DNA from: a virus
Taxonomy: Duplodnaviria > Heunggongvirae > Uroviricota > Caudoviricetes
IMG/VR virus record: IMGVR_UViG_2660238580_000002
DNA length: 64,000 nt
Direction: 5' to 3' (one strand)
Made by a program: the position numbers and the translations under genes. Shown here in pieces: positions 21,969-64,000 of the stretch. Each line of letters starts with the position of its first letter. Position 1 is the first letter of the stretch. The notes below the pieces were generated by a model. The model saw only the letters and a program-made list of their open reading frames with translations, ran no database searches and had not been told where the DNA came from.

Positions 21969-21979
21969 GCTGCCTGCTC

Positions 21980-22222: not shown

Positions 22223-22259
22223 TTTTATTTTTACCCCCTCGTTTAAAAAGTTTTTTGTG

Positions 22260-22500: not shown

Positions 22501-22511
22501 ATTGCCATTTT

Positions 22512-24559: not shown

Positions 24560-24576
24560 ATTATTTATTCCTCGAC

Positions 24577-24990: not shown

Positions 24991-25182
24991 TAATGCACCT
25001 CTTTTAATTCATACACTGCTGAAATAATGACTTGTGATAAGCCATATTCTGATGATTCGCTTCTCACCGCAGCAATAGCCGTCTGAACATTAACAGCCTT
25101 CACGTTCTGAGCGATACCAATTGTGTGGCCTAGTGGGTTAACCGCACGAGCAAATACACGGAAGGTTTTAAGCACGGCATAC
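24990..25182 (-). pseudogene. Satellite ORF body separated from its start by IS629
   Basis: Frame is open across the IS629 target site but has no ATG downstream of the insertion; the track ORF borrows IS sequence for its N-terminus. Confidence 0.4.
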
Positions 25183-25224
25183 TGAACCGCCCCGGGTTTC
25201 CTGGAGAGTGTTTTATCTGTGAAC

Positions 25225-26115
25225 TCAGGCTGCCAGATCATCGTTTCCGATGGAAGCATAATAAGCTTTTTCTGCTTCTGCCGGAGGAGTATGGCCCAGC
25301 CTTTCCAGCAATCGTCGATTGTTATACCAGTCCACCCACGTGAGTGTGGCCAGTTCCACTTCTGCACGGTTTTTCCAGCTCTTACGGTGTATTACCTCCG
25401 CTTTGTAAAGACCATTGATGCTCTCCGCCATCGCGTTGTCATACGAGTCGCCTGTACTTCCTGTTGATGCCAGTAATCCGGCTTCCTTAAGCCGCTGTGT
25501 GTAGGCCAGCGATACATACTGAGAACCTTTATCACTGTGATGGACCGTGCCGGACGGTCGACGGGCCCATAACGCCTGCTCCAGTGCATCCAGCACGAAT
25601 GTCGTTTCCATGGACGATGAGACCCGCCACCCCACGATGTATCCGGCAAACACATCAATGATGAACGCCACATAGACGAAGCCCCGCCATGTGCTGACGT
25701 AAGTAAAATCAGCCACCCACAGCTGGTCAGGTCGTTCTGCCACGAACTGACGGTTTACGCGGTCGCCTGCGGCAACGGCTTTCCGGCTGATGGTCGTACG
25801 GACCTTTTTACCCCGGAGAACACCGGCAAGTCCCATAACCGCCATGAGACGTGCCACAGTGCATCTGGCCACTCTGATACCTTCCCGTAACAACTGACGC
25901 CAGACTTTACGCACACCGTATACCTTGTGATTTTCATCGTATACGCGCTGTATCTCTTTCTTCAGCCAGTCATCGCGCTGCGCACGGGCACTGCGTTTAT
26001 CCGGATGATGTCGCTGTTGCTGACAGTGGTAATACGTTGACGGGGCAATATGCAGTTCGCTGCATAGCGGTCCGACCCCGTACTGCTCACGCAGCTTATC
26101 CAGCAGTGGCATCAT
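25225..26115 (-). CDS. IS629 transposase OrfB (DDE, made as OrfAB by frameshift)
   Basis: 296-aa [21 protein letters not shown]... Confidence 0.9.
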
Positions 26116-26438
26116 TTTTTCCAGAGGCGGTCGAACTCCGCCTTCGCAAAATAAGCGGAAGCCTGGCGAAGGATATCGTTACTGCGGCGCAGTTCACGAT
26201 TTTCACGTTCCAGCTCTTTCAGACGCTGACGTTCAGCGGTGGTGAGCCCTCCATCACCGCCCCCGGTATCCCGCTCATGCTGGCGAACCCAGACACGCAG
26301 AGTCTCCGGCGTACAGCCAATCTTTGGAGCAATGGAACAAATTGTCGCCCATTGTGAGTCATATTCGCTCTGACTTTCCAGAACCATACGGACTGCCCGT
26401 TGACGGACTTCGGGGGAAAAACGAGTATTTTTAGTCAT
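26112..26438 (-). CDS. IS629 OrfA
   Basis: 108-aa [22 protein letters not shown]... Confidence 0.9.
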
Positions 26439-26492
26439 CCTGTTTACCTCTTTCTCAGGAAGTTTAGTCTCCAGGATTCCCGGGGCGGTTCA

Positions 26493-26684
26493 TACCTCCT
26501 GACGAATACGGGCGGCAAATATCATCACGCAGCCAGTTGGGGATTGTTGGCGGGCTTCCTGTTCGCTGGCGGCCTCGATGTGTATTACGCGTGGTTGTGC
26601 GGTGCTCAGGGCGATAAAACGCCAGATGTATTTATTCAGGTTGTGCGGGTCCCGCCCTTGCGGGTGTGTGGTATGATTTCTCAT
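26493..26684 (-). CDS. Small satellite protein, last 3 codons replaced by IS629 end
   Basis: 64-aa ORF; stop codon supplied by the IS terminus. Confidence 0.45.
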
Positions 26685-26779
26685 AGCTATCTCGATACTG
26701 TTGCTATCGTTGGTGGTTAGAAGCCCGTTGGTGTTCCTAGCGCCTTCGGGCTTTGCTTTTTTAAGTGCCTCCGTGTTAA

Positions 26780-26823
26780 GGTGGTCACCTAACAGTAAAA
26801 AGGCTAATTCAATAGGTGGTCAC
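26780..26823 (+). promoter_or_regulatory. Two GGTGGTCAC direct repeats (operator-like) in the divergent promoter region
   Basis: Identical 9-mers at 26780-26788 and 26815-26823, 35 bp apart, upstream of the RHH gene. Confidence 0.35.
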
Positions 26824-27015
26824 TTGTCAACAATCAAACGCGATAAAAGTCCTAAGGGTGATGGGCAATCTCCACAATTCAGAATGCGAATTTCTCCAGA
26901 GCTAAAAGAGCAATTCGACAAAGAAGCGCAGAGCGACGGCATAAGCCTAGCCAACTGGCTTAAAGAATTAGGGCGCAAAGAGCTGCTACGGCGCGGTATT
27001 GAACCAAAAGGATAA
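26824..27015 (+). CDS. Ribbon-helix-helix (Arc/MetJ-like) DNA-binding protein, candidate satellite repressor
   Basis: RHH-like FRMRISPELKEQFDKEA...LANWLKELG; possible TTG start after AGGTGG (ATG alternative at 26884); divergent from leftward operon. Confidence 0.45.
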   Translation: MSTIKRDKSPKGDGQSPQFRMRISPELKEQFDKEAQSDGISLANWLKELGRKELLRRGIEPKG

Positions 27016-27042
27016 GAGTAATTGAAGTCAAGGAGCTAACAC

Positions 27043-27399
27043 ATGAAATACGAATTCTTCGCAACAAGTAGCAGTAGTTTGGATGTATACATAGTCACTG
27101 TATCAAACGATTCTAGCTCGCTAATCATGACTTGCAATTGTCCAGCAGGAAGTAAAGGTATTCTATGTAGACACCGTAAAGCTTTAATTACCGGAAAAAT
27201 CCGTGGTATATTCACTCCCCCAAGAAGGAATAATCCCGAAAAGTTACAAGAAGCTATAAATTTAATAACCACATATGGCATAGATAAAACATTAAAGTTG
27301 TACACTGATGAGTTAGAACGAGCAGAACAGACTTGGATAAGTGTTCGCGATAATTTGAGAGCAATGATAAACGCTCTTGTTGAACCACCTAAATATTGA
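27043..27399 (+). CDS. SWIM-zinc-finger-like small protein
   Basis: 118-aa ORF with CNCPAGSKGILCRH (CxCxnCxH). Confidence 0.4.
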   Translation: MKYEFFATSSSSLDVYIVTVSNDSSSLIMTCNCPAGSKGILCRHRKALITGKIRGIFTPPRRNNPEKLQEAINLITTYGIDKTLKLYTDELERAEQTWISVRDNLRAMINALVEPPKY

Positions 27400-27530
27400 A
27401 CTGTTCACATTGCCTATCAGTCGACAACCTCGTATTCTGATTAAGGCTAACTATATACTCACATTGGCGACCAATTCTGGTCGCCTTTATCCACCATTTT
27501 TATAACATCATAGATTAAAAGTGTTAATCC

Positions 27531-28361
27531 TTACCCCCTGAATGGAATTGATGAGGATTTAATTTCCACTGAACTAAATCCTTTTGAATCCAAGAACATT
27601 TTTATACCAGCCTCAATGAAATCATAATCGTTTGTCGGGCCAATAGTAATACTTTTAATTGGTAACTTCCTATGATCTTTATTACCAATGATGATATAAG
27701 GGATGACACCATTATTATTTATTCTGAATTGCACATCTGGTATTAGTATGCGCGGAGTAAATACCAATCTAAATTCATTTTCTTCGATAAAACTAGGATG
27801 TTTAAAAAATGGGATGTATTTAGATATAAATTGATACGTAGAGGCCATTGTTACAAAATGATCATTCTTTTCTTTAATATTAATACCATTACAAGAAAAA
27901 AACGCCCCCAACTCCTTACTCATCTTAGTAACATCGTTATTATTTGAATATATAACATCATGTGCAACACAATTTAAATAAATATTTTGAGAAAAGCTCA
28001 CAAGTTCATCCGCATCAAACTCAATGCAAACACCCTGTTTATTTCCGTAACCTCTCCACTGACTTAACTTATCGTTTTCCTTACAAAAAGAGATGCTATA
28101 AACATGTTTATCAATCCCTTTTTCTTTTTGTAACCTCCCTTTCTCATACATGTCAAGAGACTTGAGCAAAATAGTTTTCTTATCTTTTGGAATGATATTG
28201 TCATCAACTATTTTAATTGTATTTCGAAAGCATTCACATCCATGGTTAGACTCCTCTTTATCATTTAAGAAATATATGTTTGTAGCCCATAAAGAATTAG
28301 AGTCTAATATACCTTTCAAACCAAAAAGATCTGTATAATGAAATATAGCCACAATGCCCAC
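27531..28361 (-). CDS. DUF2971-like protein (second copy; cargo downstream of alpA)
   Basis: 276-aa ORF with FHYTDL...LWATNIYFLNDKEE, SQWRGYG..GVCIEFD, FIEENEFRL motifs. Confidence 0.5.
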   Translation of the reverse strand: MGIVAIFHYTDLFGLKGILDSNSLWATNIYFLNDKEESNHGCECFRNTIKIVDDNIIPKDKKTILLKSLDMYEKGRLQKEKGIDKHVYSISFCKENDKLSQWRGYGNKQGVCIEFDADELVSFSQNIYLNCVAHDVIYSNNNDVTKMSKELGAFFSCNGINIKEKNDHFVTMASTYQFISKYIPFFKHPSFIEENEFRLVFTPRILIPDVQFRINNNGVIPYIIIGNKDHRKLPIKSITIGPTNDYDFIEAGIKMFLDSKGFSSVEIKSSSIPFRG

Positions 28362-28368
28362 CTAATAG

Positions 28369-28599
28369 TTAAGTTGTTTCCCACTCACCTCGAATCCATG
28401 CCTGCACTTCTGAAAGACGATATGCAACAGCAGTGGAACCAATCTTGATCCGCTTAGGAAATTTTCCTTCCTTCTCCAGCTTCCAGCGTGTGCTGTTCGC
28501 AAGAGTGGTTAGCTCCCGACATTCTTTCTCACGGATCATTCGGTCAATGTTAGGAATGTACTCCAGACCCTTTTTATCAACAATTGCCATTTTTTTCAT
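28369..28599 (-). CDS. alpA: AlpA-family transcriptional regulator
   Basis: 76-aa ORF directly downstream of int, AlpA-like HTH. Confidence 0.75.
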   Translation of the reverse strand: MKKMAIVDKKGLEYIPNIDRMIREKECRELTTLANSTRWKLEKEGKFPKRIKIGSTAVAYRLSEVQAWIRGEWETT

Positions 28600-28600
28600 G

Positions 28601-29836
28601 TTAACCAGCCTTTTGTTTGAGGATTGTCACTTTTGAATCAGCACCTGCGATGCTATTGAGATATGTAGTCCAGAGTTCCAGAGCATCCAGTTTTTTAGCC
28701 ATAAACTTACTCCGGTTGTAAACACCTGCCACGCCAGGTAGCGCATGGCCTAACAGTTGTTCTACTACATAAAATTCAACACCGAGATCACTTAGATGAG
28801 TAGATAGCGTTCTTCTAAGGTCGTGTAGTGACCATTGTTTTTCATGGCCCAAACGTTTACCGATTTTCCCCCCAATCTTGCTTACGCTTTCTCTAATTCG
28901 CAGACTTCCCAGCACATAACCAGTATGTTTTGTCTCTTCGTGAACATCCGTTACCCACTGTCGTAGAATTTCAGGTACTGGTCTGACGATTTCAACACCG
29001 GTTTTTGAGTGTTCTTTTGGTACAGTCCAAACCCAACTTTCTAGATCCCATTCGCTCCATTCTGATAATCGGGCTTCACTCATTCGACATCCAAATACTG
29101 TACAAAGCACAAACATTTTTCGCGTGTATTCAGACATTAGTTTTAAATCAGGCTCGACAAAAATTGCCTTCCAGAGCTGGCCCAGTTCGGCTTCATCCAG
29201 AACCCGATCCCGCTTACCTGCAATCTGCCCCACATCACTCATGCGCAAATCCTTTAAAGCATCACACGTCGCGTACTGGCGTACCCGACAAAAACGAAGA
29301 GCTAATTTAGTGTCAGAAAAAACATACGCCGCCATAACTGGTGCATTACGTTTAATTCGGTCAAAACAGTCCAGCCATTCATATAGGTGAGTGTCATTTA
29401 CGGGCAAATGACCGATATAGGGAAAGATATGCTTTCGAAATCTGCCAAGCGTTACAGCATGAGTTTTACGACGCACCTTACAGTAATTTTCATACCAGTA
29501 ATTTAGTGCATCCTCCACTGTGACCGGCTTTAAGCGTTCTTCAGCCTGAATCTTAATCTGGATACGCGGATCACGTTTGTCAGCCAACCAACCACGGCAC
29601 TCGTCGCGCTTTTCTCTTGCCTGTTTGAGTGACATATCAGGATATTTACCCAACGTTAGCCAGACCGGAGCAGCCCGGCCACCTGCTAACCTGTAGAAGA
29701 AAACAAAGCTCACAGCCCCCTTAGTACTCACACGAATAGAAAGCCCCTTTCCATCAGCAATGGTGATCTGCTTTTCTCTGGGTTTCCCCAGATATCCTTT
29801 AAGCGCTTTGTCGCTCAGTTTGTTCTCGCCAGCCAT
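28601..29836 (-). CDS. int: Tyrosine integrase (P4-type)
   Basis: 411 aa from MAGENKLSDKALKGY; catalytic HDLRRT...LGH...Y region; adjacent to right att repeat. Confidence 0.9.
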   Translation of the reverse strand: MAGENKLSDKALKGYLGKPREKQITIADGKGLSIRVSTKGAVSFVFFYRLAGGRAAPVWLTLGKYPDMSLKQAREKRDECRGWLADKRDPRIQIKIQAEERLKPVTVEDALNYWYENYCKVRRKTHAVTLGRFRKHIFPYIGHLPVNDTHLYEWLDCFDRIKRNAPVMAAYVFSDTKLALRFCRVRQYATCDALKDLRMSDVGQIAGKRDRVLDEAELGQLWKAIFVEPDLKLMSEYTRKMFVLCTVFGCRMSEARLSEWSEWDLESWVWTVPKEHSKTGVEIVRPVPEILRQWVTDVHEETKHTGYVLGSLRIRESVSKIGGKIGKRLGHEKQWSLHDLRRTLSTHLSDLGVEFYVVEQLLGHALPGVAGVYNRSKFMAKKLDALELWTTYLNSIAGADSKVTILKQKAG

Positions 29837-29968
29837 TTTTAGCCCCAAAAAGCAATACAAGCTGCAATACAGAGATGATTGCAACACACAGATAACGAGG
29901 AAAATCCAGTGAAAGCGCCAGATAATCTTATTCTTTATTATCAAAGAATTAAGTGTAAAAACCAGCAA

Positions 29969-30244
29969 CTACACGAAAGCCTCAGAAAGCCATGCTAAGT
30001 GCTTCGGCTTGACATATCCCGGCGTAAATTCAGAGGTGGAGCCGCCACGGGAACGGATAACCTCACCGGAAACAATCGGCGAAACGTACAGCGCCATGTT
30101 TACCAGTCCCGGAATTTGTGAGAGATAGACTTTCTCCGTGGTGAAGGGATAGCTCTCACGGAAAAAGAGACACAGAAACAGCGGATCAAACTTAAATTTC
30201 TGCTCATTTGCCGCCAGCAGTTGGGCGGTTGTGTACATCGACAT
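29969..30244 (-). pseudogene. E: Major capsid protein E, 5' fragment (codons 1-82 fused to 9 satellite codons and a stop)
   Basis: MSMYTTAQLLAANEQKFKFDPLF...GYVKPKH then LAWLSEAFV*. Confidence 0.9.
30000..30009. repeat. Right junction direct repeat TGCTTCGGCT (att core within gene E)
   Basis: Identical to 17563-17572; E sequence resumes immediately after. Confidence 0.8.
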
Positions 30245-48309: not shown

Positions 48310-49862
48310 GAAAAATCCCCCAGAGAATTGTCTGGGGACATTTTAGAATGGTTCAAAGGGGACATTACAGCTTGGTGTTAACAATAGCCTGCTTCTCCGT
48401 GCCTTTCGGCACGTAAGAGGCTAACCTACATGTGTCTAGCATGAAATTGGCCTCAGATTAATGTTAAGCGTCTTGCAGGACGCGTAATGTTAACTGGGGC
48501 TTTTCTCTATCTGCCGTTGGTGTCCATGCCCGAGGCAGATAGCCTCAAGCACCCGCAGTCATTCTACTTAACTAAGATTTCCCCGCAAACCGTTTTTGTC
48601 CAGCACAGTAAATATCCAACTAAACCAATGGAGTTCGCTGTATTTACCGCCAGTATTCAATGCACATGACCGCCATGAACACCCCTAAAAAAAGGGCATT
48701 TATATATCCAAATATTAATATCAAAACATCAACTTTTTCCATATACCTTGCTGTGAAGATGATGGGCATACATGATGCGAACAACCAGAACGCAACAAAC
48801 AAAAACTGCAATGCGTTTTTCATTATTCCTCCTACAATCAATGTGCAATTACATTTAAACACACCTCAATTTGGCCGGACATATAAATATCTAAACCAGA
48901 AAAAATCACTTACATAGCGTTACAAACTCTTTAGTCTAAAGGTTCATCGTAAAACATTCCCCATACTTATCAGTCCGTTCCGCGCCAGGTAGCTCATTGC
49001 CTTATCTGGCAACCTGTAATCAGGTTTCCGCTTTTTCAGTTGGCTGGTCGTTTAACCGACATAGTTAATCCATTAATCTAGTTGCCGGATGTTGGTGGAT
49101 TTTCGCGTTTTAGTTGTTCATAAAAGTGCACAGCTTTAACCAGTTCTTCTGATGTAACTGGGACTGGTGAGGCAGTGAATAAGGCCTGAATTTGATAGTT
49201 CGGCCTGTCGTTACAATCCTCTTTTTTCGGTACATATTTCCAGTCACCAGACCACTACTTCCCCTGAAAGTCCGTAACGCCTTTTTTCACGTAGCGATAT
49301 CGCCATGCCACTGGTTTTGCTTGCCCCGCCGTTTCATGCCCTTCCTGATAATTAATCTCGCTCATTCATCGCCCCACTCATCACAATATGCTTCGACCGG
49401 AGTTTTTCCCGCTTCATAGTCATCACGCTAGGATTCGACATCAGCAGCACTTCCACCGCGTAACTCACCATAGTCCATTAATAGTTCATCCCGCTCTTCA
49501 AAACTGATGTTATATTTAGCTGAACAAAAATCAGCCACTTTGTTCTTCCTCATCGTCTTTTATTTCGTGGTATGAGTAATTGCAGTAGTTAAAGAAAATT
49601 TCTTATGCTCCGTCATGAATTTCCGTAAGCGTAAACTGACCGCCGTATGTAGCCATCAGACGAGAATTGGTAACTTAGACGCCCATCTGATATAGACGGA
49701 CATCTAAGTATGGAATTACAGGACTGGCGAAAAGAACCTCGTAAAAACTATTCGAATGAATTCAAACTTCGTAGACTGGCCCCCTGAATCTCCAGACAAC
49801 CAATATCACTTAAATAAGTGATAGTCTTAATACTAGTTTTTAGACTAGTCATTGGAGAGCAG

Positions 49863-50228
49863 ATGATTGATGTCTTAGGACCGGAGAAACGCAGACGGCG
49901 TACTACACAGGAAAAGATCGCTATTGTTCAGCAGAGTTTTGAACCGGGAATGACGGTCTCCCTTGTTGCCCGGCAACACGGTGTGGCAGCCAGCCAGTTA
50001 TTTCTCTGGCGCAAGCAATACCAGGAGGGAAGTCTTACTGCTGTGGCCGCAGGAGAGCAGGTCGTTCCTGCCTCTGAACTTGCTGCTGCCATGAAGCAGA
50101 TTAAAGAACTCCAGCGCCTGCTCGGCAAAAAAACGATGGAAAATGAACTCCTTAAAGAAGCCGTTGAATACGGGCGTGCAAAAAAGTGGATAGCGCACGC
50201 GCCCTTATTGCCCGGGGATGGGGAGTAA
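49863..50228 (+). CDS. insC: IS2 InsC (OrfA)
   Basis: [26 protein letters not shown]... Confidence 0.9.
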
Positions 50229-51091
50229 GCTTAGTCAGCCGTTGTCTCCGGGTGTCGCGTGCGCAGTTGCACGTAATTCTCAGACGAACCGATGACTGGA
50301 AAGATGGTCGCCGCAGCCGTCACTCAGATGATACGGATGTGCTTCTCCGTATACACCATGTTATCGGAGAGCTGCCCACGTATGGTTATCGTCGGGTATG
50401 GGCGCTGCTTCGCAGACAGGCCGAACTTGATGGTATGCCTGCGATCAATGCCAAACGTGTTTACCGGATCATGCGACAGAATGCGCTGTTGCTTGAGCGA
50501 AAAACCGCTGTACCGCCATCGAAACGGGCACATACTGGCAAAGTGGCCGTGAAAGAAAGCAATCAACGATGGTGCTCTGACGGGTTCGAGTTCCGCTGTG
50601 ATAACGGAGAAAAACTGCGAGTCACGTTCGCGCTGGACTGCTGTGACCGTGAGGCACTGCACTGGGCAGTCACTACGGGCGGCTTCGACAGTGAAACAGT
50701 ACAGGACGTCATGCTGGGAGCGGTGGAACGCCGCTTCGGCAACGAGCTTCCGGCGTCTCCAGTAGAGTGGCTGACGGATAATGGTTCATGCTACCGGGCT
50801 AATGAAACACGGCAGTTTGCCCGGATGTTGGGGCTTGAACCGAAGAACACGGCGGTGCGGAGTCCGGAGAGTAACGGCATAGCAGAGAGCTTCGTGAAAA
50901 CGATAAAGCGTGACTACATCAGTATCATGCCTAAACCAGACGGGTTAACGGCAGCAAAGAACCTTGCAGAGGCGTTCGAGCATTATAACGAATGGCATCC
51001 GCATAGTGCACTGGGTTATCGCTCGCCACGGGAATATCTGCGGCAGCAGGCCAGTAATGGGTTAAGTGATAACAGGTGTCTGGAAATATAG
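50186..51091 (+). CDS. insD: IS2 InsD transposase (OrfB)
   Basis: 301-aa [24 protein letters not shown]... Confidence 0.9.
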
Positions 51092-51103
51092 GGGCAAATC
51101 CAC

Positions 51104-51471
51104 TTCGTATGGTGGAACTGGCATCACAACCTGGAGCTTGTGTTGCACAGATTGCACGTGAAAATGGCGTCAATGATAATGTTATTTTCAAATGGCTCAG
51201 GCTCTGGCAGAACGAAGGGCGTGTTTCGCGGCGTCTTCCGGTAACGACCTCTTCTGACACTGGCGTTGAATTATTACCTGTAGAAATAACGCCGGATGAG
51301 CAGAAAGAACCTGTGGCGGCCATTGCGCCGTCTTTATCCACTTCCACTCAGACCAGAGTCAGTGCCAGTTCCTGCAAGGTGGAATTCCGTCACGGTAACA
51401 TGACGCTGGAAAATCCATCGCCAGAGCTGCTCACAGTGTTGATCCGTGAACTGACCGGGAGGGGAAGATGA
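51104..51471 (+). pseudogene. IS66-family TnpA, 3' portion (5' 21 codons lie at 49710-49772 upstream of IS2)
   Basis: Frame reads [21 protein letters not shown] | IS2 | MVELASQPGACVAQIARENG... Confidence 0.75.
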
Positions 51472-51818
51472 TCTCACTCCCATCAGGTACCCGTATCTGG
51501 CTCGTTGCCGGCGTTACCGATATGCGTAAATCCTTCAACGGACTGGGAGAACAGGTACAACATGTGCTGAATGATAATCCCTTCTCCGGTCACCTGTTTA
51601 TCTTCCGTGGCCGACGGGGTGACACCGTCAAAATTCTTTGGGCTGATGCTGATGGTCTGTGCCTGTTCACCAAACGCCTGGAGGAAGGCCAGTTTATCTG
51701 GCCTGCGGTACGTGACGGCAAGGTATCCATTACCCGCTCGCAACTGGCAATGCTCCTCGATAAGCTGGACTGGCGTCAGCCAAAAACATCCAGCCGTAAC
51801 TCACTGACAATGTTGTAA
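51468..51818 (+). CDS. IS66-family TnpB
   Basis: 116-aa ORF MISLPSGTRIWLVAGVTDMRKSFNGL... Confidence 0.85.
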   Translation: MISLPSGTRIWLVAGVTDMRKSFNGLGEQVQHVLNDNPFSGHLFIFRGRRGDTVKILWADADGLCLFTKRLEEGQFIWPAVRDGKVSITRSQLAMLLDKLDWRQPKTSSRNSLTML

Positions 51819-51848
51819 AAAACTCCTGACCGCATTATAAAAACGGTC

Positions 51849-53462
51849 ATGAGTCAGAAATACCTCATTCGCATCGCAGAGCTGGAAAGGTTGCTCTCTG
51901 AGCAGGCTGAAGCCCTCCGTCAGAAAGACCAGCAACTGAGTCTGGTTGAAGAGACGGAAGCCTTCCTGCGCTCTGCACTGACACGTGTCGAAGAAAAGAT
52001 CGAAGAAGATGAACGGGAAATAGAACATCTGCGGGCTCAGATAGAAAAACTGCGCCGGATGCTGTTCGGTACCCGTTCTGAAAAACTGCGTCGTGAAGTT
52101 GAACTGGCTGAGGCTCTGCTGAAACAACGTGAACAGGACAGCGATCGTTACAGTGGGCGGGAAGACGATCCTCAGGTTCCCCGCCAGTTGCGACAGTCGC
52201 GCCATCGTCGTCCGTTACCGGCACACCTTCCCCGTGAAATACACCGCCTGGAGCCAGAAGAAAGCTGTTGCCCGGAGTGTGGCGGTGAGCTGGATTATCT
52301 GGGGGAAGTCAGCGCTGAACAGCTGGAACTGGTGAGCAGTGCCCTGAAAGTGATCCGCACAGAACGGGTAAAAAAAGCCTGTACAAAATGTGACTGTATT
52401 GTTGAAGCACCGGCGCCGTCCCGCCCGGTAGAGCGTGGTATCGCGGGCCCCGGATTACTTGCCCGCGTGTTAACGGGAAAATACTGCGAACATCTGCCAC
52501 TGTATCGTCAGAGTGAAATCTTTGCCCGCCAGGGTGTCGAACTGAGCCGGGCCTTACTCTCCAACTGGGTTGACGCGTGCTGCCAGTTAATGACACCGGT
52601 GAATGATGCCCTGTACCGTTATGTAATGAACACCCGCAAGGTTCACACTGATGACACACCGGTAAAGGTACTGGCACCGGGTCAGAAAAAGGCGAAAACA
52701 GGGCGTATCTGGACGTATGTCCGGGATGATCGCAATGTGGGTTCGTCATCTCCTCCAGCGGTCTGGTTCGCGTACTCGCCGAACCGGCAGGGGAAACACC
52801 CGGAGCAACACCTCCGCCCCTTCCGGGGTATCCTGCAGGCGGATGCGTTCACAGGTTACGACAGGTTGTTCAGTGCAGAACGTGAAGGTGGTGCACTGAC
52901 AGAAGTTGCGTGCTGGGCCCATGCCCGGCGAAAAATCCACGATGTATACATCAGCAGCAAAAGTGCGACGGCAGAAGAAGCCCTGAAGCGAATCAGTGAA
53001 CTGTACGCCATCGAGGATGAAATACGGGGATTACCGGAGTCAGAGCGTCTTGCCGTCAGGCAGCAGCGAAGCAAAGTGTTACTGACGTCGCTGCATGAAT
53101 GGATGGTGGAGAAGAATGGTACGCTGTCGAAAAAATCCAGACTGGGCGAAGCGTTCAGCTATGTACTGAATCAGTGGGATGCCCTCTGTTATTACAGTGA
53201 TGACGGTCTGGCGGAGGCGGATAATAATGCTGCGGAAAGAGCGCTTCGTGCAGTCTGTCTCGGAAAGAAAAACTTTATGTTCTTTGGCAGCGATCACGGC
53301 GGCGAGCGTGGAGCACTGTTGTACGGGCTGATCGGCACCTGCCGTCTGAACGGTATCGATCCGGAAGCGTATCTGCGCCATATCCTGAGCGTACTGCCGG
53401 AATGGCCTTCCAACCGAGTTGATGAACTCCTGCCATGGAACGTAGTACTCACCAATAAATAA
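51849..53462 (+). CDS. IS66-family transposase TnpC
   Basis: 537-aa ORF with N-terminal coiled coil, Cys zinc motif and DDE region. Confidence 0.85.
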   Translation: MSQKYLIRIAELERLLSEQAEALRQKDQQLSLVEETEAFLRSALTRVEEKIEEDEREIEHLRAQIEKLRRMLFGTRSEKLRREVELAEALLKQREQDSDRYSGREDDPQVPRQLRQSRHRRPLPAHLPREIHRLEPEESCCPECGGELDYLGEVSAEQLELVSSALKVIRTERVKKACTKCDCIVEAPAPSRPVERGIAGPGLLARVLTGKYCEHLPLYRQSEIFARQGVELSRALLSNWVDACCQLMTPVNDALYRYVMNTRKVHTDDTPVKVLAPGQKKAKTGRIWTYVRDDRNVGSSSPPAVWFAYSPNRQGKHPEQHLRPFRGILQADAFTGYDRLFSAEREGGALTEVACWAHARRKIHDVYISSKSATAEEALKRISELYAIEDEIRGLPESERLAVRQQRSKVLLTSLHEWMVEKNGTLSKKSRLGEAFSYVLNQWDALCYYSDDGLAEADNNAAERALRAVCLGKKNFMFFGSDHGGERGALLYGLIGTCRLNGIDPEAYLRHILSVLPEWPSNRVDELLPWNVVLTNK

Positions 53463-53851
53463 GCGTCAATACGGTGCTCCGTTGACGCTTACGAATTTCC
53501 TCAGGTGTTGCGTCATCGTCCACTTCGAATACATCCTCAAAATCTCCACCAGCTATTCCCGTTTCAATAATAATTTTGAACTTTCGCATTTCACTACCGC
53601 CCTTTCGGGCGGCCTCCTGATGTTCTGAGGGTGCAGAAATCCATCCGGTTAAGGATTAAATTTTATTTACAGAACTGAATTTAATTATTCAGATATACGT
53701 ATCTGTAGCCTTACGAATCTACTCACTGGATGCCTCTTTCATAAAAATAATCCAGTGGGTTTTATCGTTTTTTCCCTGTTCGTTGACAGATAACAGGTTT
53801 TCTGTCTGTCAGTGCCAGAATCTGGCTTACCGGTATTTGCGTTTCATTCCA

Positions 53852-58107: not shown

Positions 58108-58296
58108 ATGAAAACGTTATTACCAAACGTTAATACGTCTGAAGGTTGTTTTGAAATTGGTGTCACTATCAGTAACCCAGTATTTACTGAAGATGCCATT
58201 AACAAGAGAAAACAAGAACGGGAGCTATTAAATAAAATATGCATTGTTTCAATGCTGGCTCGTTTACGTCTGATGCCAAAAGGATGTGCACAATGA
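58108..58296 (+). CDS. dicB: DicB cell-division inhibitor
   Basis: 62 aa MKTLLPNVNTSEGCFEIGVTISNPVFTEDAINKRK... Confidence 0.9.
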   Translation: MKTLLPNVNTSEGCFEIGVTISNPVFTEDAINKRKQERELLNKICIVSMLARLRLMPKGCAQ

Positions 58297-58390
58297 ATTC
58301 AGCATTTGTGCTTGTTCTGACAGTTTTTCTTGTTTCCGGAGAGCCAGTTGAACCGCCCCGGGTTTCCTGGAGAGTGTTTTATCTGTGAAC

Positions 58391-59281
58391 TCAGGCTGCC
58401 AGATCATCGTTTCCGATGGAAGCATAATAAGCTTTTTCTGCTTCTGCCGGAGGAGTATGGCCCAGCCTTTCCAGCAATCGTCGATTGTTATACCAGTCCA
58501 CCCACGTGAGTGTGGCCAGTTCCACTTCTGCACGGTTTTTCCAGCTCTTACGGTGTATTACCTCCGCTTTGTAAAGACCATTGATGCTCTCCGCCATCGC
58601 GTTGTCATACGAGTCGCCTGTACTTCCTGTTGATGCCAGTAATCCGGCTTCCTTAAGCCGCTGTGTGTAGGCCAGCGATACATACTGAGAACCTTTATCA
58701 CTGTGATGGACCGTGCCGGACGGTCGACGGGCCCATAACGCCTGCTCCAGTGCATCCAGCACGAATGTCGTTTCCATGGACGATGAGACCCGCCACCCCA
58801 CGATGTATCCGGCAAACACATCAATGATGAACGCCACATAGACGAAGCCCCGCCATGTGCTGACGTAAGTAAAATCAGCCACCCACAGCTGGTCAGGTCG
58901 TTCTGCCACGAACTGACGGTTTACGCGGTCGCCTGCGGCAACGGCTTTCCGGCTGATGGTCGTACGGACCTTTTTACCCCGGAGAACACCGGCAAGTCCC
59001 ATAACCGCCATGAGACGTGCCACAGTGCATCTGGCCACTCTGATACCTTCCCGTAACAACTGACGCCAGACTTTACGCACACCGTATACCTTGTGATTTT
59101 CATCGTATACGCGCTGTATCTCTTTCTTCAGCCAGTCATCGCGCTGCGCACGGGCACTGCGTTTATCCGGATGATGTCGCTGTTGCTGACAGTGGTAATA
59201 CGTTGACGGGGCAATATGCAGTTCGCTGCATAGCGGTCCGACCCCGTACTGCTCACGCAGCTTATCCAGCAGTGGCATCAT
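58391..59281 (-). CDS. IS629 transposase OrfB
   Basis: Translation identical to copy 1 OrfB. Confidence 0.9.
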
Positions 59282-59604
59282 TTTTTCCAGAGGCGGTCGA
59301 ACTCCGCCTTCGCAAAATAAGCGGAAGCCTGGCGAAGGATATCGTTACTGCGGCGCAGTTCACGATTTTCACGTTCCAGCTCTTTCAGACGCTGACGTTC
59401 AGCGGTGGTGAGCCCTCCATCACCGCCCCCGGTATCCCGCTCATGCTGGCGAACCCAGACACGCAGAGTCTCCGGCGTACAGCCAATCTTTGGAGCAATG
59501 GAACAAATTGTCGCCCATTGTGAGTCATATTCGCTCTGACTTTCCAGAACCATACGGACTGCCCGTTGACGGACTTCGGGGGAAAAACGAGTATTTTTAG
59601 TCAT
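59278..59604 (-). CDS. IS629 OrfA
   Basis: Translation identical to copy 1 OrfA. Confidence 0.9.
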
Positions 59605-59889
59605 CCTGTTTACCTCTTTCTCAGGAAGTTTAGTCTCCAGGATTCCCGGGGCGGTTCAAGTTGATATTGCAGTCAGTGTTCACAGGACAATGCAGGAGTG
59701 TATGACTGCAGCAACCGAACAGAAAATTCCCGGTAACTGTTACCCGGTCGATAAAGTTATTCACCAGGATAATATCGAAATCCCGGCAGGTCTTTAAAAC
59801 AGTTCCGTAATAAATATCCGGTTTCATTCTTATATGCCAGCAATGGCAGGGATTTGTTCATCCTTAAATCTGTCATGAGGTTAAAACAA

Positions 59890-62361
59890 ATGAGTAAAGT
59901 CTTTATTTGCGCCGCTATTCCTGACGAACTGGCAACAAGGGAAGAAGGCGCTGTGGCTGTAGCCACAGCCATTGAAGCTGGCGACGAACGCCGTGCTCGA
60001 GCAAAATTTCACTGGCAATTCCTGGAACATTATCCGGCTGCTCAGGACTGCGCTTATAAATTTATTGTCTGCGAGGATAAACCTGGCATACCCCGCCCTG
60101 CCCTCGATTCATGGGATGCTGAATATATGCAGGAAAACCGCTGGGATGAGGAGTCTGCTTCTTTTGTCCCGGTTGAGACTGAATCCGATCCGATGAACGT
60201 CACTTTTGACAAGCTGGCCCCTGAAGTACAGAACGCTGTCATGGTTAAGTTCGACACATGTGAAAACATCACCGTTGATATGGTTATTAGCGCACAGGAA
60301 TTGTTGCAGGAAGACATGGCAACATTCGACGGACATATCGTTGAAGCGTTGATGAAAATGCCAGAAGTTAACGCCATGTATCCGGAGCTTAAGTTGCACG
60401 CCATTGGGTGGGTTAAGCATAAATGTATTCCTGGTGCTAAATGGCCCGAAATTCAGGCAGAGATGCGCATCTGGAAAAAACGTCGCGAAGGTGAACGCAA
60501 GGAAACCGGAAAATACACGTCTGTTGTTGATCTCGCCCGCGCCAGAGCCAATCAACAGTACACTGAAAATTCAACAGGAAAAATCAGCCCGGTCATTGCT
60601 GCCATTCATCGCGAATACAAGCAGACATGGAAAACACTGGATGACGAACTGGCCTACGCTCTCTGGCCTAGTGATGTGGATGCCGGAAACATTGACGGCA
60701 GCATCCATCGCTGGGCAAAAAAAGAAGTTATCGACAACGACCGCGAAGACTGGAAGCGTATCTCGGCATCAATGCGCAAACAGCCTGATGCCCTTCGCTA
60801 CGACCGCCAAACTATTTTTGGCCTTGTCCGTGAGCGTCCGATCGACATTCACAAAGATCCCGTAGCACTGAACAAATATATCTGCGAATACCTGACGACA
60901 AAGGGCGTGTTTGAGAATGAAGAAACAGACCTGGGCACTGTTGATGTTCTCCAGTCATCAGAAACACAAACTGATGCAGTGGAAACTGAGGTATCTGATA
61001 TCCCAAAAAATGAAACCGCGCCGGAAGCTGAACCATCTGTAGAGCGTGAGGGGCCGTTCTATTTCCTCTTCGCAGATAAGGACGGAGAAAAATACGGTCG
61101 CGCAAACAAACTCTCTGGTCTGGATAAGGCACTGGCTGCTGGCGCCACTGAAATCACAAAAGAAGAATATTTTGCCCGAAAAAATGGCACATACACGGGC
61201 TTACCGCAAAATGTAGATACCGCTGAAGATTCAGAACAACCAGAGCCGATAAAAGTTACCGCTGACGAAGTAAACAAAATTATGCAGGCAGCCAATATCA
61301 GCCAGCCTGACGCCGATAAGTTGCTTGCTGCATCACGTGGTGAATTTGTTGAAGGGATTAGTGACCCGAATGATCCGAAATGGGTTAAGGGGCTCCAGAC
61401 CCGCGATTCTGTGAACCAGAACCAGCATGAATCGGAACGGAACTACCAAAAAGCGGAACAAAACAGTCCAAATGCGTTACAAAACGAGCCAGAAACGAAA
61501 CAGCCTGAACCAGTAGCGCAACAGGAAGTGGAAAAAGTCTGCACCGCCTGCGGTCAGACCGGCGGCGGCAACCGCCCTGATTGTGGCGCGGTGATGGGCG
61601 ACGCAACATACCAAGAAACATTCGATGAAGAGTATCAGGTTGAAGTTCAGGAAGATGATCCGGAGGAAATGGAAGGCGCTGAACATCCACACAAGGAGAA
61701 CACTGGCGGCAATCAGCATCACAATAGCGATAATGAAACTGGCGAGACGGCAGATCACCCAATTAAGGTGAACGGTCATCACGAAATCACATCCACCAGC
61801 AGGACGTGTGACCATCTAATGATCGACCTTGAAACCATGGGAAAAAATCCTGATGCCCCGATCATCTCAATAGGTGCAATATTTTTCGATCCGCAAACCG
61901 GAGATATGGGACCGGAATTTAGTAAGACTATCGATCTGGAAACTGCTGGCGGAGTCATTGATCGGGACACCATTAAATGGTGGCTTAAGCAATCACGCGA
62001 AGCGCAATCTGCCATTATGACCGATGAAATCCCGTTAGATGATGCACTGTTACAATTGCGAGAATTTATCGACGAAAACTCCGGTGAATTTTTTGTTCAG
62101 GTTTGGGGAAATGGAGCCAACTTCGACAACACGATTTTGCGCCGTTCATACGAACGGCAGGGGATCCCCTGCCCGTGGCGTTACTACAACGATCGCGATG
62201 TACGCACAATCGTTGAGCTGGGGAAAGCCATAGACTTCGATGCCAGAACGGCTATTCCATTCGAAGGTGAGCGCCATAATGCACTTGATGACGCCCGTTA
62301 CCAGGCAAAATACGTTTCAGTTATCTGGCAAAAACTGATCCCGAGTCAGGCTGATTCTTAA
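59890..62361 (+). CDS. Large YdfE-like early protein with C-terminal DEDDh 3'-5' exonuclease domain
   Basis: C-terminus HLMIDLETMG...WGNGANFD...HNALDD is DnaQ-like; start taken at Met with GAGG RBS; in-frame ATG at 59854 possible. Confidence 0.6.
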   Translation: MSKVFICAAIPDELATREEGAVAVATAIEAGDERRARAKFHWQFLEHYPAAQDCAYKFIVCEDKPGIPRPALDSWDAEYMQENRWDEESASFVPVETESDPMNVTFDKLAPEVQNAVMVKFDTCENITVDMVISAQELLQEDMATFDGHIVEALMKMPEVNAMYPELKLHAIGWVKHKCIPGAKWPEIQAEMRIWKKRREGERKETGKYTSVVDLARARANQQYTENSTGKISPVIAAIHREYKQTWKTLDDELAYALWPSDVDAGNIDGSIHRWAKKEVIDNDREDWKRISASMRKQPDALRYDRQTIFGLVRERPIDIHKDPVALNKYICEYLTTKGVFENEETDLGTVDVLQSSETQTDAVETEVSDIPKNETAPEAEPSVEREGPFYFLFADKDGEKYGRANKLSGLDKALAAGATEITKEEYFARKNGTYTGLPQNVDTAEDSEQPEPIKVTADEVNKIMQAANISQPDADKLLAASRGEFVEGISDPNDPKWVKGLQTRDSVNQNQHESERNYQKAEQNSPNALQNEPETKQPEPVAQQEVEKVCTACGQTGGGNRPDCGAVMGDATYQETFDEEYQVEVQEDDPEEMEGAEHPHKENTGGNQHHNSDNETGETADHPIKVNGHHEITSTSRTCDHLMIDLETMGKNPDAPIISIGAIFFDPQTGDMGPEFSKTIDLETAGGVIDRDTIKWWLKQSREAQSAIMTDEIPLDDALLQLREFIDENSGEFFVQVWGNGANFDNTILRRSYERQGIPCPWRYYNDRDVRTIVELGKAIDFDARTAIPFEGERHNALDDARYQAKYVSVIWQKLIPSQADS

Positions 62362-62433: not shown

Positions 62434-62685
62434 ATGAGCGAAGTAATCATGATTGTCTCTCCCGGCAAATGGGTATCCGAAGAGCAGTTAATTGCGCTGA
62501 AAGGAATAAAAAAAGGTACGTTAAAAAAGGCCCGGGAAAAATCGTTTATGGAAGGAAGGGAATATAAGCATGTCGCTCATGACGGTATGCCATGGGATAA
62601 CAGTCCATGCTTTTACAACCTGGAAGAAATTGATCGCTGGATTGAGCGCCAGGCATCAGCGAGACCAAGACGTCATCTTACTTGA
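62434..62685 (+). CDS. xis: Excisionase-like protein
   Basis: 83-aa ORF directly upstream of int. Confidence 0.5.
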   Translation: MSEVIMIVSPGKWVSEEQLIALKGIKKGTLKKAREKSFMEGREYKHVAHDGMPWDNSPCFYNLEEIDRWIERQASARPRRHLT

Positions 62686-62719
62686 CTAAAAGCCACACTA
62701 ACTAATGAGAGAAGTTGAA

Positions 62720-64000
62720 ATGAAATATCCGACAGGCGTGGAAAACCATGGAGGGAAATTACGTATCTGGTTTGTTTATAAAGACGTAAGAGTCAGGGAA
62801 AATCTGGGGGTTCCTGACACAGCAAAAAACAGGCGCGTTGCAGGTGAACTACGCTCCTCTGTTTGTTACGCAATAAAAACTGGTGTTTTCGACTATGCAA
62901 AACAGTTTCCCTCCTCACGCAATCTGGAAAAATTTGGTGAGGCCCGACAAGATTTAACCATAAAAGAACTGGCTGAAAAATTTCTGGCACTGAAAGAAAC
63001 TGAAGTCGCCAAAACATCACTCAACACATACCGTGCCGTCATCAAAAATATCCTGAGCATAATCGGTGAAAAAAATCTTGCCTCATCGATTAATAAAGAA
63101 AAATTACTGGAGGTTCGTAAAGAGTTACTGACTGGATACCAGATCCCCAAAAGTAACTATATTGTTACACAACCAGGGAGATCGGCTGTAACTGTAAATA
63201 ATTACATGACAAATCTTAACGCCGTGTTCCAGTTTGGTGTTGATAACGGTTACCTGGCAGATAATCCGTTTAAGGGGATCTCGCCATTAAAGGAATCAAG
63301 AACCATTCCGGATCCTCTTTCGCGGGAAGAATTTATCCGTCTTATCGATGCGTGCAGAAATCAGCAAGCAAAAAATTTATGGTGTGTTTCTGTTTATACT
63401 GGAGTTCGCCCTGGTGAGCTGTGTGCACTTGGATGGGAGGACATAGATCTGAAAAATGGAACAATGATGATCAGGAGAAATTTAGCAAAAGACCGTTTCA
63501 CGGTACCAAAAACACAGGCGGGAACCAATCGGGTCATTCATCTTATTAAGCCAGCAATCGACGCTCTCCGGAGTCAGATGACATTAACGAGACTGAGCAA
63601 AGAGCATATCATTGATGTTCACCTCAGAGAGTATGGCAGAACAGAAAAACAAAAATGCACCTTTGTTTTTCAACCTGAAGTGTCAGCGAGAGTAAAAAAT
63701 TATGGTGACCATTTTACCGTTGACTCAATAAGGCAGATGTGGGACGCAGCGATAAAACGTGCCGGACTCCGCCATCGAAAATCATATCAGTCGAGACATA
63801 CTTATGCCTGCTGGTCGCTGACAGCTGGTGCTAACCCGGCATTTATAGCAAACCAGATGGGCCATGCAGATGCGCAAATGGTATTTCAGGTATACGGAAA
63901 ATGGATGTCTGAAAACAATAATGCACAGGTAGCTTTGTTAAATACACAGTTAAGCGAGTTTGCCCCAACCATGCCCCATAACGAAGCAATGAAAAATTAA
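62720..64000 (+). CDS. int: Prophage tyrosine integrase (IntQ-like)
   Basis: MKYPTGVENHGGKLRIWF...; catalytic R..HxxR..Y region; stop TAA at window end. Confidence 0.85.
   Translation: MKYPTGVENHGGKLRIWFVYKDVRVRENLGVPDTAKNRRVAGELRSSVCYAIKTGVFDYAKQFPSSRNLEKFGEARQDLTIKELAEKFLALKETEVAKTSLNTYRAVIKNILSIIGEKNLASSINKEKLLEVRKELLTGYQIPKSNYIVTQPGRSAVTVNNYMTNLNAVFQFGVDNGYLADNPFKGISPLKESRTIPDPLSREEFIRLIDACRNQQAKNLWCVSVYTGVRPGELCALGWEDIDLKNGTMMIRRNLAKDRFTVPKTQAGTNRVIHLIKPAIDALRSQMTLTRLSKEHIIDVHLREYGRTEKQKCTFVFQPEVSARVKNYGDHFTVDSIRQMWDAAIKRAGLRHRKSYQSRHTYACWSLTAGANPAFIANQMGHADAQMVFQVYGKWMSENNNAQVALLNTQLSEFAPTMPHNEAMKN

What the first reader, a model, noticed from the sequence alone, without database searches (positions are those of the whole stretch)
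59890..62361. Full-length YdfE-like early protein with a C-terminal DEDDh exonuclease domain
Seen: an ORF of about 820 aa whose C-terminus has DnaQ-like motifs (DLETMG, WGNGANFD, HNALDD) and whose middle is acidic and low-complexity. It occupies the exo/recE position between int/xis and dicB. Inference: a recombination or anti-restriction exonuclease of a different fold from lambda Exo or RecE. K-12 Qin retains only a fragment at this position (ydfE, as I recall).
Basis: partly seen in the sequence, partly recalled or inferred. Interest (0 to 1): 0.4.

Follow-up and report, generated by a model that had tools for sequence, protein, structure and literature searches.

The report
RecE-like prophage protein with DexA-type exonuclease
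This is a common, already annotated early gene of Qin/Tritos-type lambdoid prophages: an 823-residue protein with a RecE-like non-catalytic body and a T4 DexA-like 3'-5' exonuclease domain where RecE has its 5'-3' nuclease; its biological role has not been tested.

Summary
Window 59890-62361 (+) is an intact 823-aa ORF. Its last 183 residues are a DEDDh exonuclease (Pfam PF16473, E=2.4e-67) with D646/E648/D746/H796/D801 invariant in homologues. The closest solved structure is T4 DexA. K-12 Qin keeps only the first 767 nt, cut by IS2 (ydfE).

The protein is a RecE relative whose PD-(D/E)XK nuclease, and whose partner RecT, are absent.

Relatives share one N-terminal body, with a YdfE-type or RecE-type head plus a common N2 segment. 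That body is joined to a DEDDh exonuclease, a RecE-type nuclease, or a Rad52-family annealase (for example phage ZF40 gp07, annotated 'exonuclease').

The gene is not new. It matches 4800 of 5426 complete E. coli genomes and several phage records: PhiR42_1 (100% identical), HannyBb and Tritos. A 2025 paper lists Tritos as the prototype of a 'nuclease-only', Chi-rich recombination module.

Function is inferred only. My best guess is 3'-end trimming of phage DNA in a phage that relies on host RecBCD/Chi. The main rival is exclusion of modified-DNA phages, as reported for the E. coli DexA homologue EcD. Interest is modest.

The parts
59890..62361 (+). Complete CDS, 823 aa plus stop ('exonuclease' / '3'-5' exonuclease' in RefSeq)
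   Evidence: Three alleles are all intact, with overall dN/dS 0.18-0.27.
59877..59880 (+). GAGG ribosome-binding site, 9 nt before the ATG
   Evidence: Read from the sequence.
59890..60585 (+). N1, 'YdfE-type' N-terminal head (aa 1-232); the part that survives in K-12 ydfE
   Evidence: No hit in the local Pfam copy. Newer Pfam accessions PF27430/PF27432 are attached to homologues. PHROG 5943. AF2 pLDDT is about 67 for aa 1-69 and 80-90 for aa 101-206. dN/dS 0.09-0.11.
60586..60924 (+). N2 (aa 233-345), a segment shared by RecE (about 278-340) and by nearly all relatives whatever their C-terminus
   Evidence: The AF2 model here is poor.
60925..61221 (+). Acidic linker with the conserved island 'GPFYF..GRANK..EITKEEYFARKNG' (aa ~385-435), shared with the Rad52-fusion relatives
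61222..61809 (+). RecE-like middle region (aa 445-640), acidic and predicted disordered; DNA 85.5% identical to recE over query nt 1420-1867
61540..61587 (+). C-x2-C-x8-(C)-x2-C zinc-ribbon-like motif (aa 551-566); this allele has R562 where RecE and about 40 homologue clusters have Cys
61810..62358 (+). DEDDh (DnaQ-like) 3'-5' exonuclease domain, DexA-like (aa 641-823). Catalytic codons: D646 61825-61827, E648 61831-61833, D746 62125-62127, H796 62275-62277, D801 62290-62292
58108..58296 (+). dicB, upstream gene of the same early-left operon
   Evidence: Pfam DicB E=1.9e-40.
58293..59797 (+). ydfD (DUF1482), split by an IS3-family element at about 58352-59658 (transposase genes on the - strand)
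62434..62685 (+). Excisionase (DUF1233)
62705..64000 (+). Tyrosine integrase (Arm-DNA-bind_2 + Phage_integrase)

Best explanation
Shown: this is an intact early-left-operon gene of a Qin/Tritos-type lambdoid prophage. It encodes a modular RecE-family protein. The body consists of a YdfE-type head, a shared N2 segment and a RecE-like acidic, disordered middle with a zinc-ribbon-like motif. In place of RecE's PD-(D/E)XK 5'-3' nuclease it carries a DexA-like DEDDh domain with all five catalytic residues. The phage has no annealase and no Gam-type RecBCD inhibitor, and it is Chi-rich.

Inferred: after induction the protein is made from the DicA-controlled leftward operon. The non-catalytic body brings the nuclease to the same partner or DNA substrate that RecE and the Rad52-fusion relatives use. 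The nuclease then removes 3' single-stranded tails from phage DNA ends in the 3'-5' direction. That would leave blunt or 5'-tailed ends that host RecBCD can load on, so the phage's Chi sites can drive the recombination-dependent replication it cannot support with its own enzymes.
For: Domain identity: Pfam PF16473 E=2.4e-67. D646/E648/D746/H796/D801 are invariant in 17 homologues. T4 DexA is the best solved relative by profile (E=2.5e-15) and by fold (Foldseek E=4e-11), with domain pLDDT 78-93.

RecE kinship: BLASTP E=1e-60 over aa 262-627 and an NCBIfam RecE partial hit.

The body is tied to recombination enzymes. Among 63 cluster representatives of at least 500 aa that share it, the C-terminus is DEDDh (11), RecE-type PDDEXK (15), a Rad52-like domain (20) or a fourth unknown domain (6), on either type of head. 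The Rad52 assignment rests on stand-alone homologues that pass Pfam PF04098 and are named Rad52/Rad22 by NCBI. ZF40 gp07 matches the profile at E=1.9e-104 and sits next to a Mu Gam-like gene.

Context: always dicB-ydfD-exo-xis-int, at several integration sites and in phage records. No RecT, Rad52-like, RecE nuclease, Gam or MuGam in the window and none annotated in PhiR42_1. Nine Chi sites against 2.15 expected, seven on the late-gene strand.

Literature: Zheng et al. 2025 (PMC12315714) list Tritos, whose gene is 98.9% identical, as the prototype of a 'nuclease only, no anti-RecBCD, Chi-rich' Rec module, and report DnaQ-like nucleases in lambdoid Rec modules.

All modules are under purifying selection: dN/dS is 0.09-0.11 for N1 and 0.11-0.24 for DEDDh.
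Against: No experiment bears on this protein. 3'-5' exonucleases remove the 3' tails that RecA and annealases need, and Zheng et al. themselves note that they usually inhibit recombination. The end-blunting idea rests on my recollection of E. coli ExoI/ExoX/SbcCD genetics, not on a tool result. Substrate (DNA or RNA) is not established: the Pfam family is named for an exoribonuclease. Stand-alone 180-190-aa versions of the domain sit next to xis-int without any RecE-like body. That fits an accessory gene as well as it fits a recombination gene. Chi density in the window is above the shuffle expectation, but by my recollection it is not above the E. coli chromosome average.
Confidence: 0.4

Rival explanations
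1. Exclusion or defence nuclease against phages with modified DNA (HREX-like). The DexA-like domain would selectively degrade 5hmC-type DNA of superinfecting T-even phages, protecting the lysogen or the induced cell.
For: Kang et al. 2025 (PMC12153337) report that EcD, an E. coli DexA homologue, degrades T4 DNA but not unmodified DNA and protects cells from T4. DexA is the closest solved relative of this domain. Stand-alone homologues sit at the int-proximal end of prophages, a typical accessory-gene site. The gene is retained intact in 3537 of 5426 E. coli genomes, including in defective prophages.
Against: EcD's sequence could not be retrieved, so its closeness to this domain is unverified. 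In my alignment the residue that the paper says must be absent (DexA D90) is Asp here, and DexA D169 aligns to Ala. The gene lies in the DicA-repressed leftward operon behind dicB, so it should be silent in a lysogen (established knowledge of Qin; not tested here). This reading does not explain the 640-residue RecE-like body or its fusion to annealases. The PADLOC hit is only a weak generic DEDDh match.
Confidence: 0.2
2. Nucleic-acid scavenging or RNA turnover. The protein would work like DexA in host-DNA breakdown, or like Rv2179c/RNase AS, Orn and RNase T in RNA 3'-end trimming, supplying nucleotides or reshaping RNA during lytic growth.
For: Pfam family name and structural neighbours: RNase T, REXO2/Orn, ERI, RNase AS. 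DexA has a host-DNA scavenging role.
Against: Temperate lambdoid phages are not known to degrade the host chromosome (general knowledge). The kinship with RecE, the slot in the Rec-module region and the fusion of the same body to annealases all point to DNA transactions. RNase AS ranks only 44th among fold matches.
Confidence: 0.1
3. Anti-defence factor. It would destroy host immune nucleic acids that have free 3' ends (for example retron msDNA, guide DNAs or linear signalling oligonucleotides), or remove ssDNA that triggers host sensors.
For: It is an early-expressed phage gene with an orphan nuclease and no partner. DEDDh enzymes act on short 3'-OH substrates (neighbours).
Against: Nothing links it to any defence system, and no known anti-defence family was hit. 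This reading does not explain the RecE/Rad52 modular kinship.
Confidence: 0.07
4. A decaying or functionless prophage remnant.
For: K-12 carries only a fragment. This allele has C562R in a conserved Cys motif. An IS sits just upstream.
Against: The gene is intact and under purifying selection in every module. It is 100% identical in the phage record PhiR42_1 and near-identical in the phage records HannyBb and Tritos. All catalytic residues are present.
Confidence: 0.03

Closest known systems
RecE (exodeoxyribonuclease VIII) of the Rac prophage
   Same: Same operon slot just upstream of xis-int. A large acidic protein of similar length (866 against 823 aa). Homologous N2 and middle regions (aa 262-627 to RecE 278-592, E=1e-60), including the CxxC..CxxC motif. 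There is even 85% DNA identity over about 450 nt.
   Different: RecE's PF06630 head and PF12684 PD-(D/E)XK 5'-3' nuclease are both absent. There is no recT next door. The NCBIfam RecE score is 276.8 against a cutoff of 1269. The nuclease polarity is expected to be opposite.
T4 DexA (PDB 8KEL) and its E. coli homologue EcD ('HREX')
   Same: Same DEDDh subfamily (PF16473). DexA is the best sequence-profile and fold match. All catalytic residues align.
   Different: 27% identity to DexA. This domain lacks DexA's extra loops and helices. It is the C-terminal domain of an 823-aa protein rather than a free enzyme of about 190-227 aa. The D90 equivalent is retained and D169 is not.
'Tritos-type' nuclease-only Rec module and DnaQ-like Rec-module nucleases (Zheng, Casjens, Davidson, Amundsen, Smith 2025)
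   Same: The Tritos gene is 98.9% identical. Both have no SAP, no SSB and no anti-RecBCD, and both have many Chi sites.
   Different: The main text of the paper does not describe the domain make-up of this nuclease, and its supplements were not readable here. So I cannot say whether the authors typed it as RecE-like or DnaQ-like.
Body-Rad52 fusion proteins (ZF40 gp07; PHROG 2489; probably the 'RecE-2' proteins of Zheng et al.)
   Same: Same YdfE-type head, N2 and GPFY island, and the same operon position.
   Different: The C-terminus is a Rad52/Rad22-family annealase domain plus a coiled coil, not a nuclease.

Membership tests
DEDDh / DnaQ-like 3'-5' exonucleases, PF16473 (Rv2179c/DexA) branch | Profile match above the curated cutoff over the whole domain | tested here: met
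   226.5 bits against a cutoff of 27, profile positions 2-177 of 177.
DEDDh / DnaQ-like 3'-5' exonucleases, PF16473 (Rv2179c/DexA) branch | Exo I D-x-E, Exo II D, Exo III H-x4-D catalytic residues | tested here: met
   D646, E648, D746, H796 and D801 are invariant in 17 homologues and aligned to DexA.
DEDDh / DnaQ-like 3'-5' exonucleases, PF16473 (Rv2179c/DexA) branch | RNase H-like alpha/beta fold | tested here: met
   AF2 pLDDT 78-93 for aa 640-819. The top Foldseek hits are DexA, RNase T, ERI, Orn and ExoX.
DEDDh / DnaQ-like 3'-5' exonucleases, PF16473 (Rv2179c/DexA) branch | Metal-dependent 3'-5' exonuclease activity | not testable with these tools
   Needs a biochemical assay.
RecE / exodeoxyribonuclease VIII (NCBIfam NF007259 equivalog) | Full-length profile match above the cutoff | tested here: not met
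   276.8 bits against 1269, and only model positions 271-600 matched.
RecE / exodeoxyribonuclease VIII (NCBIfam NF007259 equivalog) | C-terminal PD-(D/E)XK nuclease (PF12684) | tested here: not met
   Absent from the protein and from the window.
RecE / exodeoxyribonuclease VIII (NCBIfam NF007259 equivalog) | N-terminal Exonuc_VIII domain (PF06630) | tested here: not met
   No hit here. It is present in RecE and in the L003 variant.
RecE / exodeoxyribonuclease VIII (NCBIfam NF007259 equivalog) | Adjacent recT annealase gene | tested here: not met
   xis follows directly, and tblastn with RecT finds nothing.
RecE / exodeoxyribonuclease VIII (NCBIfam NF007259 equivalog) | Homologous central non-catalytic region | tested here: met
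   BLASTP E=1e-60, aa 262-627 against RecE 278-592.
HREX / EcD modified-DNA defence exonuclease (Kang et al. 2025) | DexA homology with an intact active site | tested here: met
HREX / EcD modified-DNA defence exonuclease (Kang et al. 2025) | Loss of the tetramer-forming Asp (DexA D90; Ala in EcD) | tested here: not met
   Asp is retained in 'PLDDAL' by MAFFT alignment. Some stand-alone homologues, such as P0229, have Ala.
HREX / EcD modified-DNA defence exonuclease (Kang et al. 2025) | Conserved 5hmC-recognition Trp and acidic residue (DexA D169) | tested here: inconclusive
   D169 aligns to Ala, but the alignment is weak in that loop. The Trp position is not given in the text I read.
HREX / EcD modified-DNA defence exonuclease (Kang et al. 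2025) | Protection against T4 and selectivity for modified DNA | not testable with these tools
   Needs plaque and nuclease assays.
Nuclease-only ('Tritos-type') lambdoid Rec module | Nuclease gene in the early-left operon with no SAP, SSB or anti-RecBCD | tested here: met
   Redbeta, Erf, Sak4 and Abc2 were excluded only through the annotation of the PhiR42_1 record.
Nuclease-only ('Tritos-type') lambdoid Rec module | Many Chi sites, mostly on the late-gene strand | tested here: met
   9 Chi (7 on the - strand) against 2.15 expected; 0 of 100 shuffles reach 9.

The most novel reading that the evidence does not exclude
The shared non-catalytic body (YdfE- or RecE-type head, N2 and the acidic middle) would be a general recombination adaptor. 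Lambdoid phages would use it to tether interchangeable DNA-end enzymes (a 5'-3' nuclease, a 3'-5' nuclease or a Rad52-type annealase) to one common partner or substrate. The DEDDh version would define a RecBCD/Chi-dependent 'end-blunting' strategy. This would give a first functional handle on the roughly 600-residue RecE N-terminal region, described as being of unknown function in a 2023 review.
Probability: 0.2. Interest if true: 0.6.

Novelty: already known. Interest (0 to 1): 0.3.

Why it matters
On its own the gene is ordinary. It is one of the commonest prophage genes in E. coli, it is correctly labelled an exonuclease, and the type was noted in a 2025 survey of lambdoid recombination modules.

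What could matter is the pattern around it. The same large non-catalytic body is joined to three different recombination enzymes. That argues the long-unexplained N-terminal two-thirds of RecE has a function of its own, and it offers natural domain swaps to test that function. RecE is widely used in recombineering, and the full-length protein is needed for efficient linear-linear cloning.

The analysis also flags a likely annotation error. Proteins such as ZF40 gp07 are called 'exonuclease' but carry a Rad52-type annealase domain. If so, ZF40 would have its own annealase, which Table 1 of that survey does not credit it with.

Tried and rejected

2. Full-length model. MAFFT misplaced the C-terminal fragments in a composite alignment, so I modelled only aa 440-823. 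The middle came out disordered and the zinc-ribbon-like motif was not resolved.

3. Rad52 assignment by direct routes failed. There was no PDB sequence hit for the third C-terminal domain. The assignment holds only through intermediate stand-alone homologues.

4. Identifying EcD (HAK9828821.1). The cluster look-up of ten stand-alone homologues did not list that accession.

5. Literature on ydfE and on Rv2179c in phages held nothing specific. The supplements of Zheng et al. are not held.

6. PADLOC gave only a weak generic Cas-associated DEDDh hit, which I do not take as evidence of defence.

7. The pseudogene/remnant idea was rejected on dN/dS and on the gene's presence in phage records.
Full report

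Yes. The ORF listing gives one long ORF, 59854..62361 (+), 835 aa from a TTG. The in-frame ATG at 59890 gives 823 aa. It is preceded by GAGG at 59877-59880 and is the start used in RefSeq, where the whole 2472-nt query is matched by genes called 'exonuclease'.

Pfam places aa 642-813 in PF16473 (Rv2179c-like 3'-5' exoribonuclease) at E=2.4e-67 over the full profile, with a weak second hit to RNase_T. In an alignment with 16 homologues of 58-87% identity, D646, E648, D746, H796 and D801 are invariant. This is the DEDDh set.

An AlphaFold2 model of aa 440-823 has pLDDT 78-93 for aa 640-819. Its best PDB fold matches are T4 DexA (8KEL, E=4e-11), then RNase T, 3'hExo/ERI and REXO2/Orn. Rv2179c itself (RNase AS) ranks only 44th. 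A sequence profile also finds DexA first (E=2.5e-15).

The middle (aa 346-640) is 20.7% Asp+Glu with net charge -36. For aa 440-640 the model predicts disorder.

**2. Surroundings**

The window is essentially one lambdoid prophage. It aligns along most of its length to Escherichia phage PhiR42_1 (host ECOR13). The gene under study is 100% identical to the PhiR42_1 copy.

The leftward early operon reads dicA-like repressor, ydfA/B/C, dicB (58108-58296), ydfD, this gene, xis (62434-62685, DUF1233), int (62705-64000). In the window ydfD is split by an IS3-family element at about 58352-59658 that PhiR42_1 lacks.

The same dicB-ydfD-exo-xis-int order is found in O157:H7 and in a prophage at the ompW locus.

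A K-12 derivative has nt 1-767 at 100% identity, followed by IS2 and a truncated integrase. So ydfE is indeed the stump of this gene.

I found no annealase. None is annotated in the 76 genes of PhiR42_1. tblastn with RecT and the RecE nuclease, and an HMM of the Rad52-like domain described below, find nothing in the six-frame translation of the window.

**3.

NCBIfam's RecE model hits aa 246-623 (model positions 271-600 of 877), but at 276.8 bits against a cutoff of 1269. BLASTP against a Rac RecE aligns aa 262-627 to RecE 278-592 at E=1e-60. From about aa 470 the two are nearly identical: 'DADKLLAASRGEFV.GISDPNDPKWVKG.QTRD', a C-x2-C-x8-C-x2-C motif, and an acidic 'DPEEMEGAEHPH' tail. The DNA is 85.5% identical to recE over about 450 nt, so exchange was recent.

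RecE's own ends are different. It has PF06630 at the N-terminus and the PF12684 PD-(D/E)XK nuclease at the C-terminus. A second E. coli phage allele (vB_EcoS-640R1, 813 aa) has the RecE-type PF06630 head with the DEDDh tail.

**4. A combinatorial family**

An exhaustive HMMER search with aa 1-345 found 171 cluster representatives. I sorted the 63 representatives of at least 500 aa by BLAST against reference segments.

| Head type | Rad52-like | DEDDh | PDDEXK | Fourth domain (unknown) | Unknown/none |
|---|---|---|---|---|---|
| YdfE-type | 18 | 3 | 3 | 5 | 1 |
| RecE-type | 1 | 8 | 6 | 0 | 9 |
| Unclassified head | 1 | 0 | 6 | 1 | 1 |

The common denominator is N2 (aa 233-345).

The 'Rad52-like' tail has no hit in the local Pfam copy and none in the PDB by sequence. 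Its profile does retrieve about 243-aa stand-alone proteins at E around 1e-60. NCBI names some of these Rad52/Rad22 family proteins, and four of them pass Pfam PF04098's cutoff (23.0-34.0 bits against 20.3).

Pectobacterium phage ZF40 gp07 is annotated 'exonuclease'. It matches the profile at E=1.9e-104 over aa 437-642. It lies in the same slot, followed by a Mu Gam-like gene, xis and int.

So one non-catalytic body is joined in nature to a 5'-3' nuclease, a 3'-5' nuclease or an annealase. Only the PD-(D/E)XK version was seen with recT next door.

Pairwise dN/dS among three intact 823-aa alleles:

| Module | dN/dS |
|---|---|
| N1 | 0.09-0.11 |
| N2 | 0.12-0.20 |
| Linker | 0.28-0.35 |
| Middle | 0.34-0.46 |
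| DEDDh | 0.11-0.24 |

The head is as constrained as the nuclease.

**5. What is already known**

The gene matches 4800 of 5426 complete E. coli genomes, and 3537 carry at least 80% of it, with a median of two places per genome. RefSeq calls it 'exonuclease', '3'-5' exonuclease' or '3'-5' exoribonuclease domain-containing protein'. It is PHROG 2082. Homologues carry the newer Pfam accessions PF27430/PF27432 on the head.

It is also present in the phage records HannyBb, Tritos, mEp460, Evi and the PPompW phages.

Zheng, Casjens, Davidson, Amundsen and Smith (Genome Res 2025, PMC12315714) surveyed 325 lambdoid genomes. They report DnaQ-like 3'-5' nucleases in Rec modules. They list Tritos as the prototype of a four-member class with a nuclease but no annealase, SSB or RecBCD inhibitor, and with many Chi sites. 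They also mention 'RecE-2' proteins that lack a nuclease domain, and they class ZF40 as having only an anti-RecBCD gene. The window fits that class: 9 Chi sites against 2.15 expected, 7 of them on the late-gene strand.

Kang et al. (NAR 2025, PMC12153337) solved DexA. They report that an E. coli homologue, EcD, degrades 5hmC-DNA only and protects against T4. I could not obtain EcD's sequence.

A 2023 review still calls RecE's N-terminal region a domain of unknown function.

**6. How it most likely works**

Shown: the domain architecture, an intact active site, the operon position, the lack of a phage annealase or Gam, Chi enrichment, and purifying selection.

Inferred: the protein is made from the DicA-controlled leftward operon on induction. 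The shared body delivers the nuclease to the substrate or partner that RecE and the annealase fusions also use. The DEDDh domain removes 3' single-stranded tails from phage DNA ends. I favour the idea that this blunts the ends so that host RecBCD can load and the phage's Chi sites can promote recombination-dependent replication. That step rests on my recollection of the roles of ExoI, ExoX and SbcCD in E. coli, and I rate it about 0.4.

The main rival, at about 0.2, is an EcD-like exclusion nuclease for modified DNA. Several points count against it. By alignment the residue said to be lost in EcD (DexA D90) is Asp here, and D169 aligns to Ala. The gene sits behind dicB in a repressed operon. 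The large RecE-like body is left unexplained.

In its favour, stand-alone 189-aa versions lie immediately upstream of the same type of xis-int pair in Salmonella prophages, next to a DndB-like gene. That position also suits an accessory gene.

Scavenging or RNA turnover, anti-defence and 'dead remnant' are less likely (see the rival explanations).

**7. Verdict**

It is incomplete about the RecE kinship, and the proposed function is untested.

The gene is already known and very common, so the finding itself is of low to moderate interest. The by-products of some value are the three-way modularity of the RecE-type body and the likely mis-annotation of the Rad52-fusion proteins.

Noticed in passing
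window 58352-59658: An IS3-family insertion sequence (orfA 59278-59604 and orfB 58391-59281, both on the - strand) splits ydfD directly upstream of the exonuclease gene. The otherwise near-identical phage PhiR42_1 lacks it. It may be polar on leftward early transcription into the exonuclease, xis and int.
   Followed up: partly
window 61573-61575 (codon 562): This allele (also in PhiR42_1 and strain cq9) has Arg where RecE and about 40 homologue clusters have the third Cys of a C-x2-C-x8-C-x2-C motif. Only one other cluster deviates, with Ser.
   Followed up: partly
L010 4968-7133 (Pectobacterium phage ZF40 gp07); PHROGs 2489 and 7838: Proteins annotated 'exonuclease' carry the YdfE-type head but end in a Rad52/Rad22-family annealase domain and a coiled coil, with no nuclease domain found. 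If so, ZF40 would have its own annealase, unlike its published classification as 'anti-RecBCD only'.
   Followed up: yes
window, 9 sites, e.g. 61793-61800 (-) inside the gene: Chi (GCTGGTGG) occurs 9 times against 2.15 expected from shuffles. Seven sites are on the strand of the late genes. This is as described for lambdoid phages that lack their own recombination system.
   Followed up: partly
L005-L008 4743-6570 (Salmonella prophages): A stand-alone 189-aa version of the DEDDh domain sits between a DndB-like gene (369 aa) and the same type of xis-int pair (DUF1233 + Arm-DNA-bind_2). The nuclease domain plus xis-int may travel as one mosaic block.
   Followed up: no
P0240 aa ~437-697 (PHROG 26058): A fourth C-terminal domain of unknown function, with no Pfam hit, is attached to the same YdfE-type body in 6 of 63 cluster representatives.
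   Followed up: no
P0237 (527 aa): A natural internal-deletion variant joins the segment matching window aa 1-368 directly to most of the DEDDh domain, removing the whole acidic middle.
   Followed up: no
window 17572-30000 and 49624-53493: These two stretches have no long counterpart in PhiR42_1, while the rest of the window is 96-100% identical. This looks like mosaic replacement in the structural and early-right regions.
   Followed up: no
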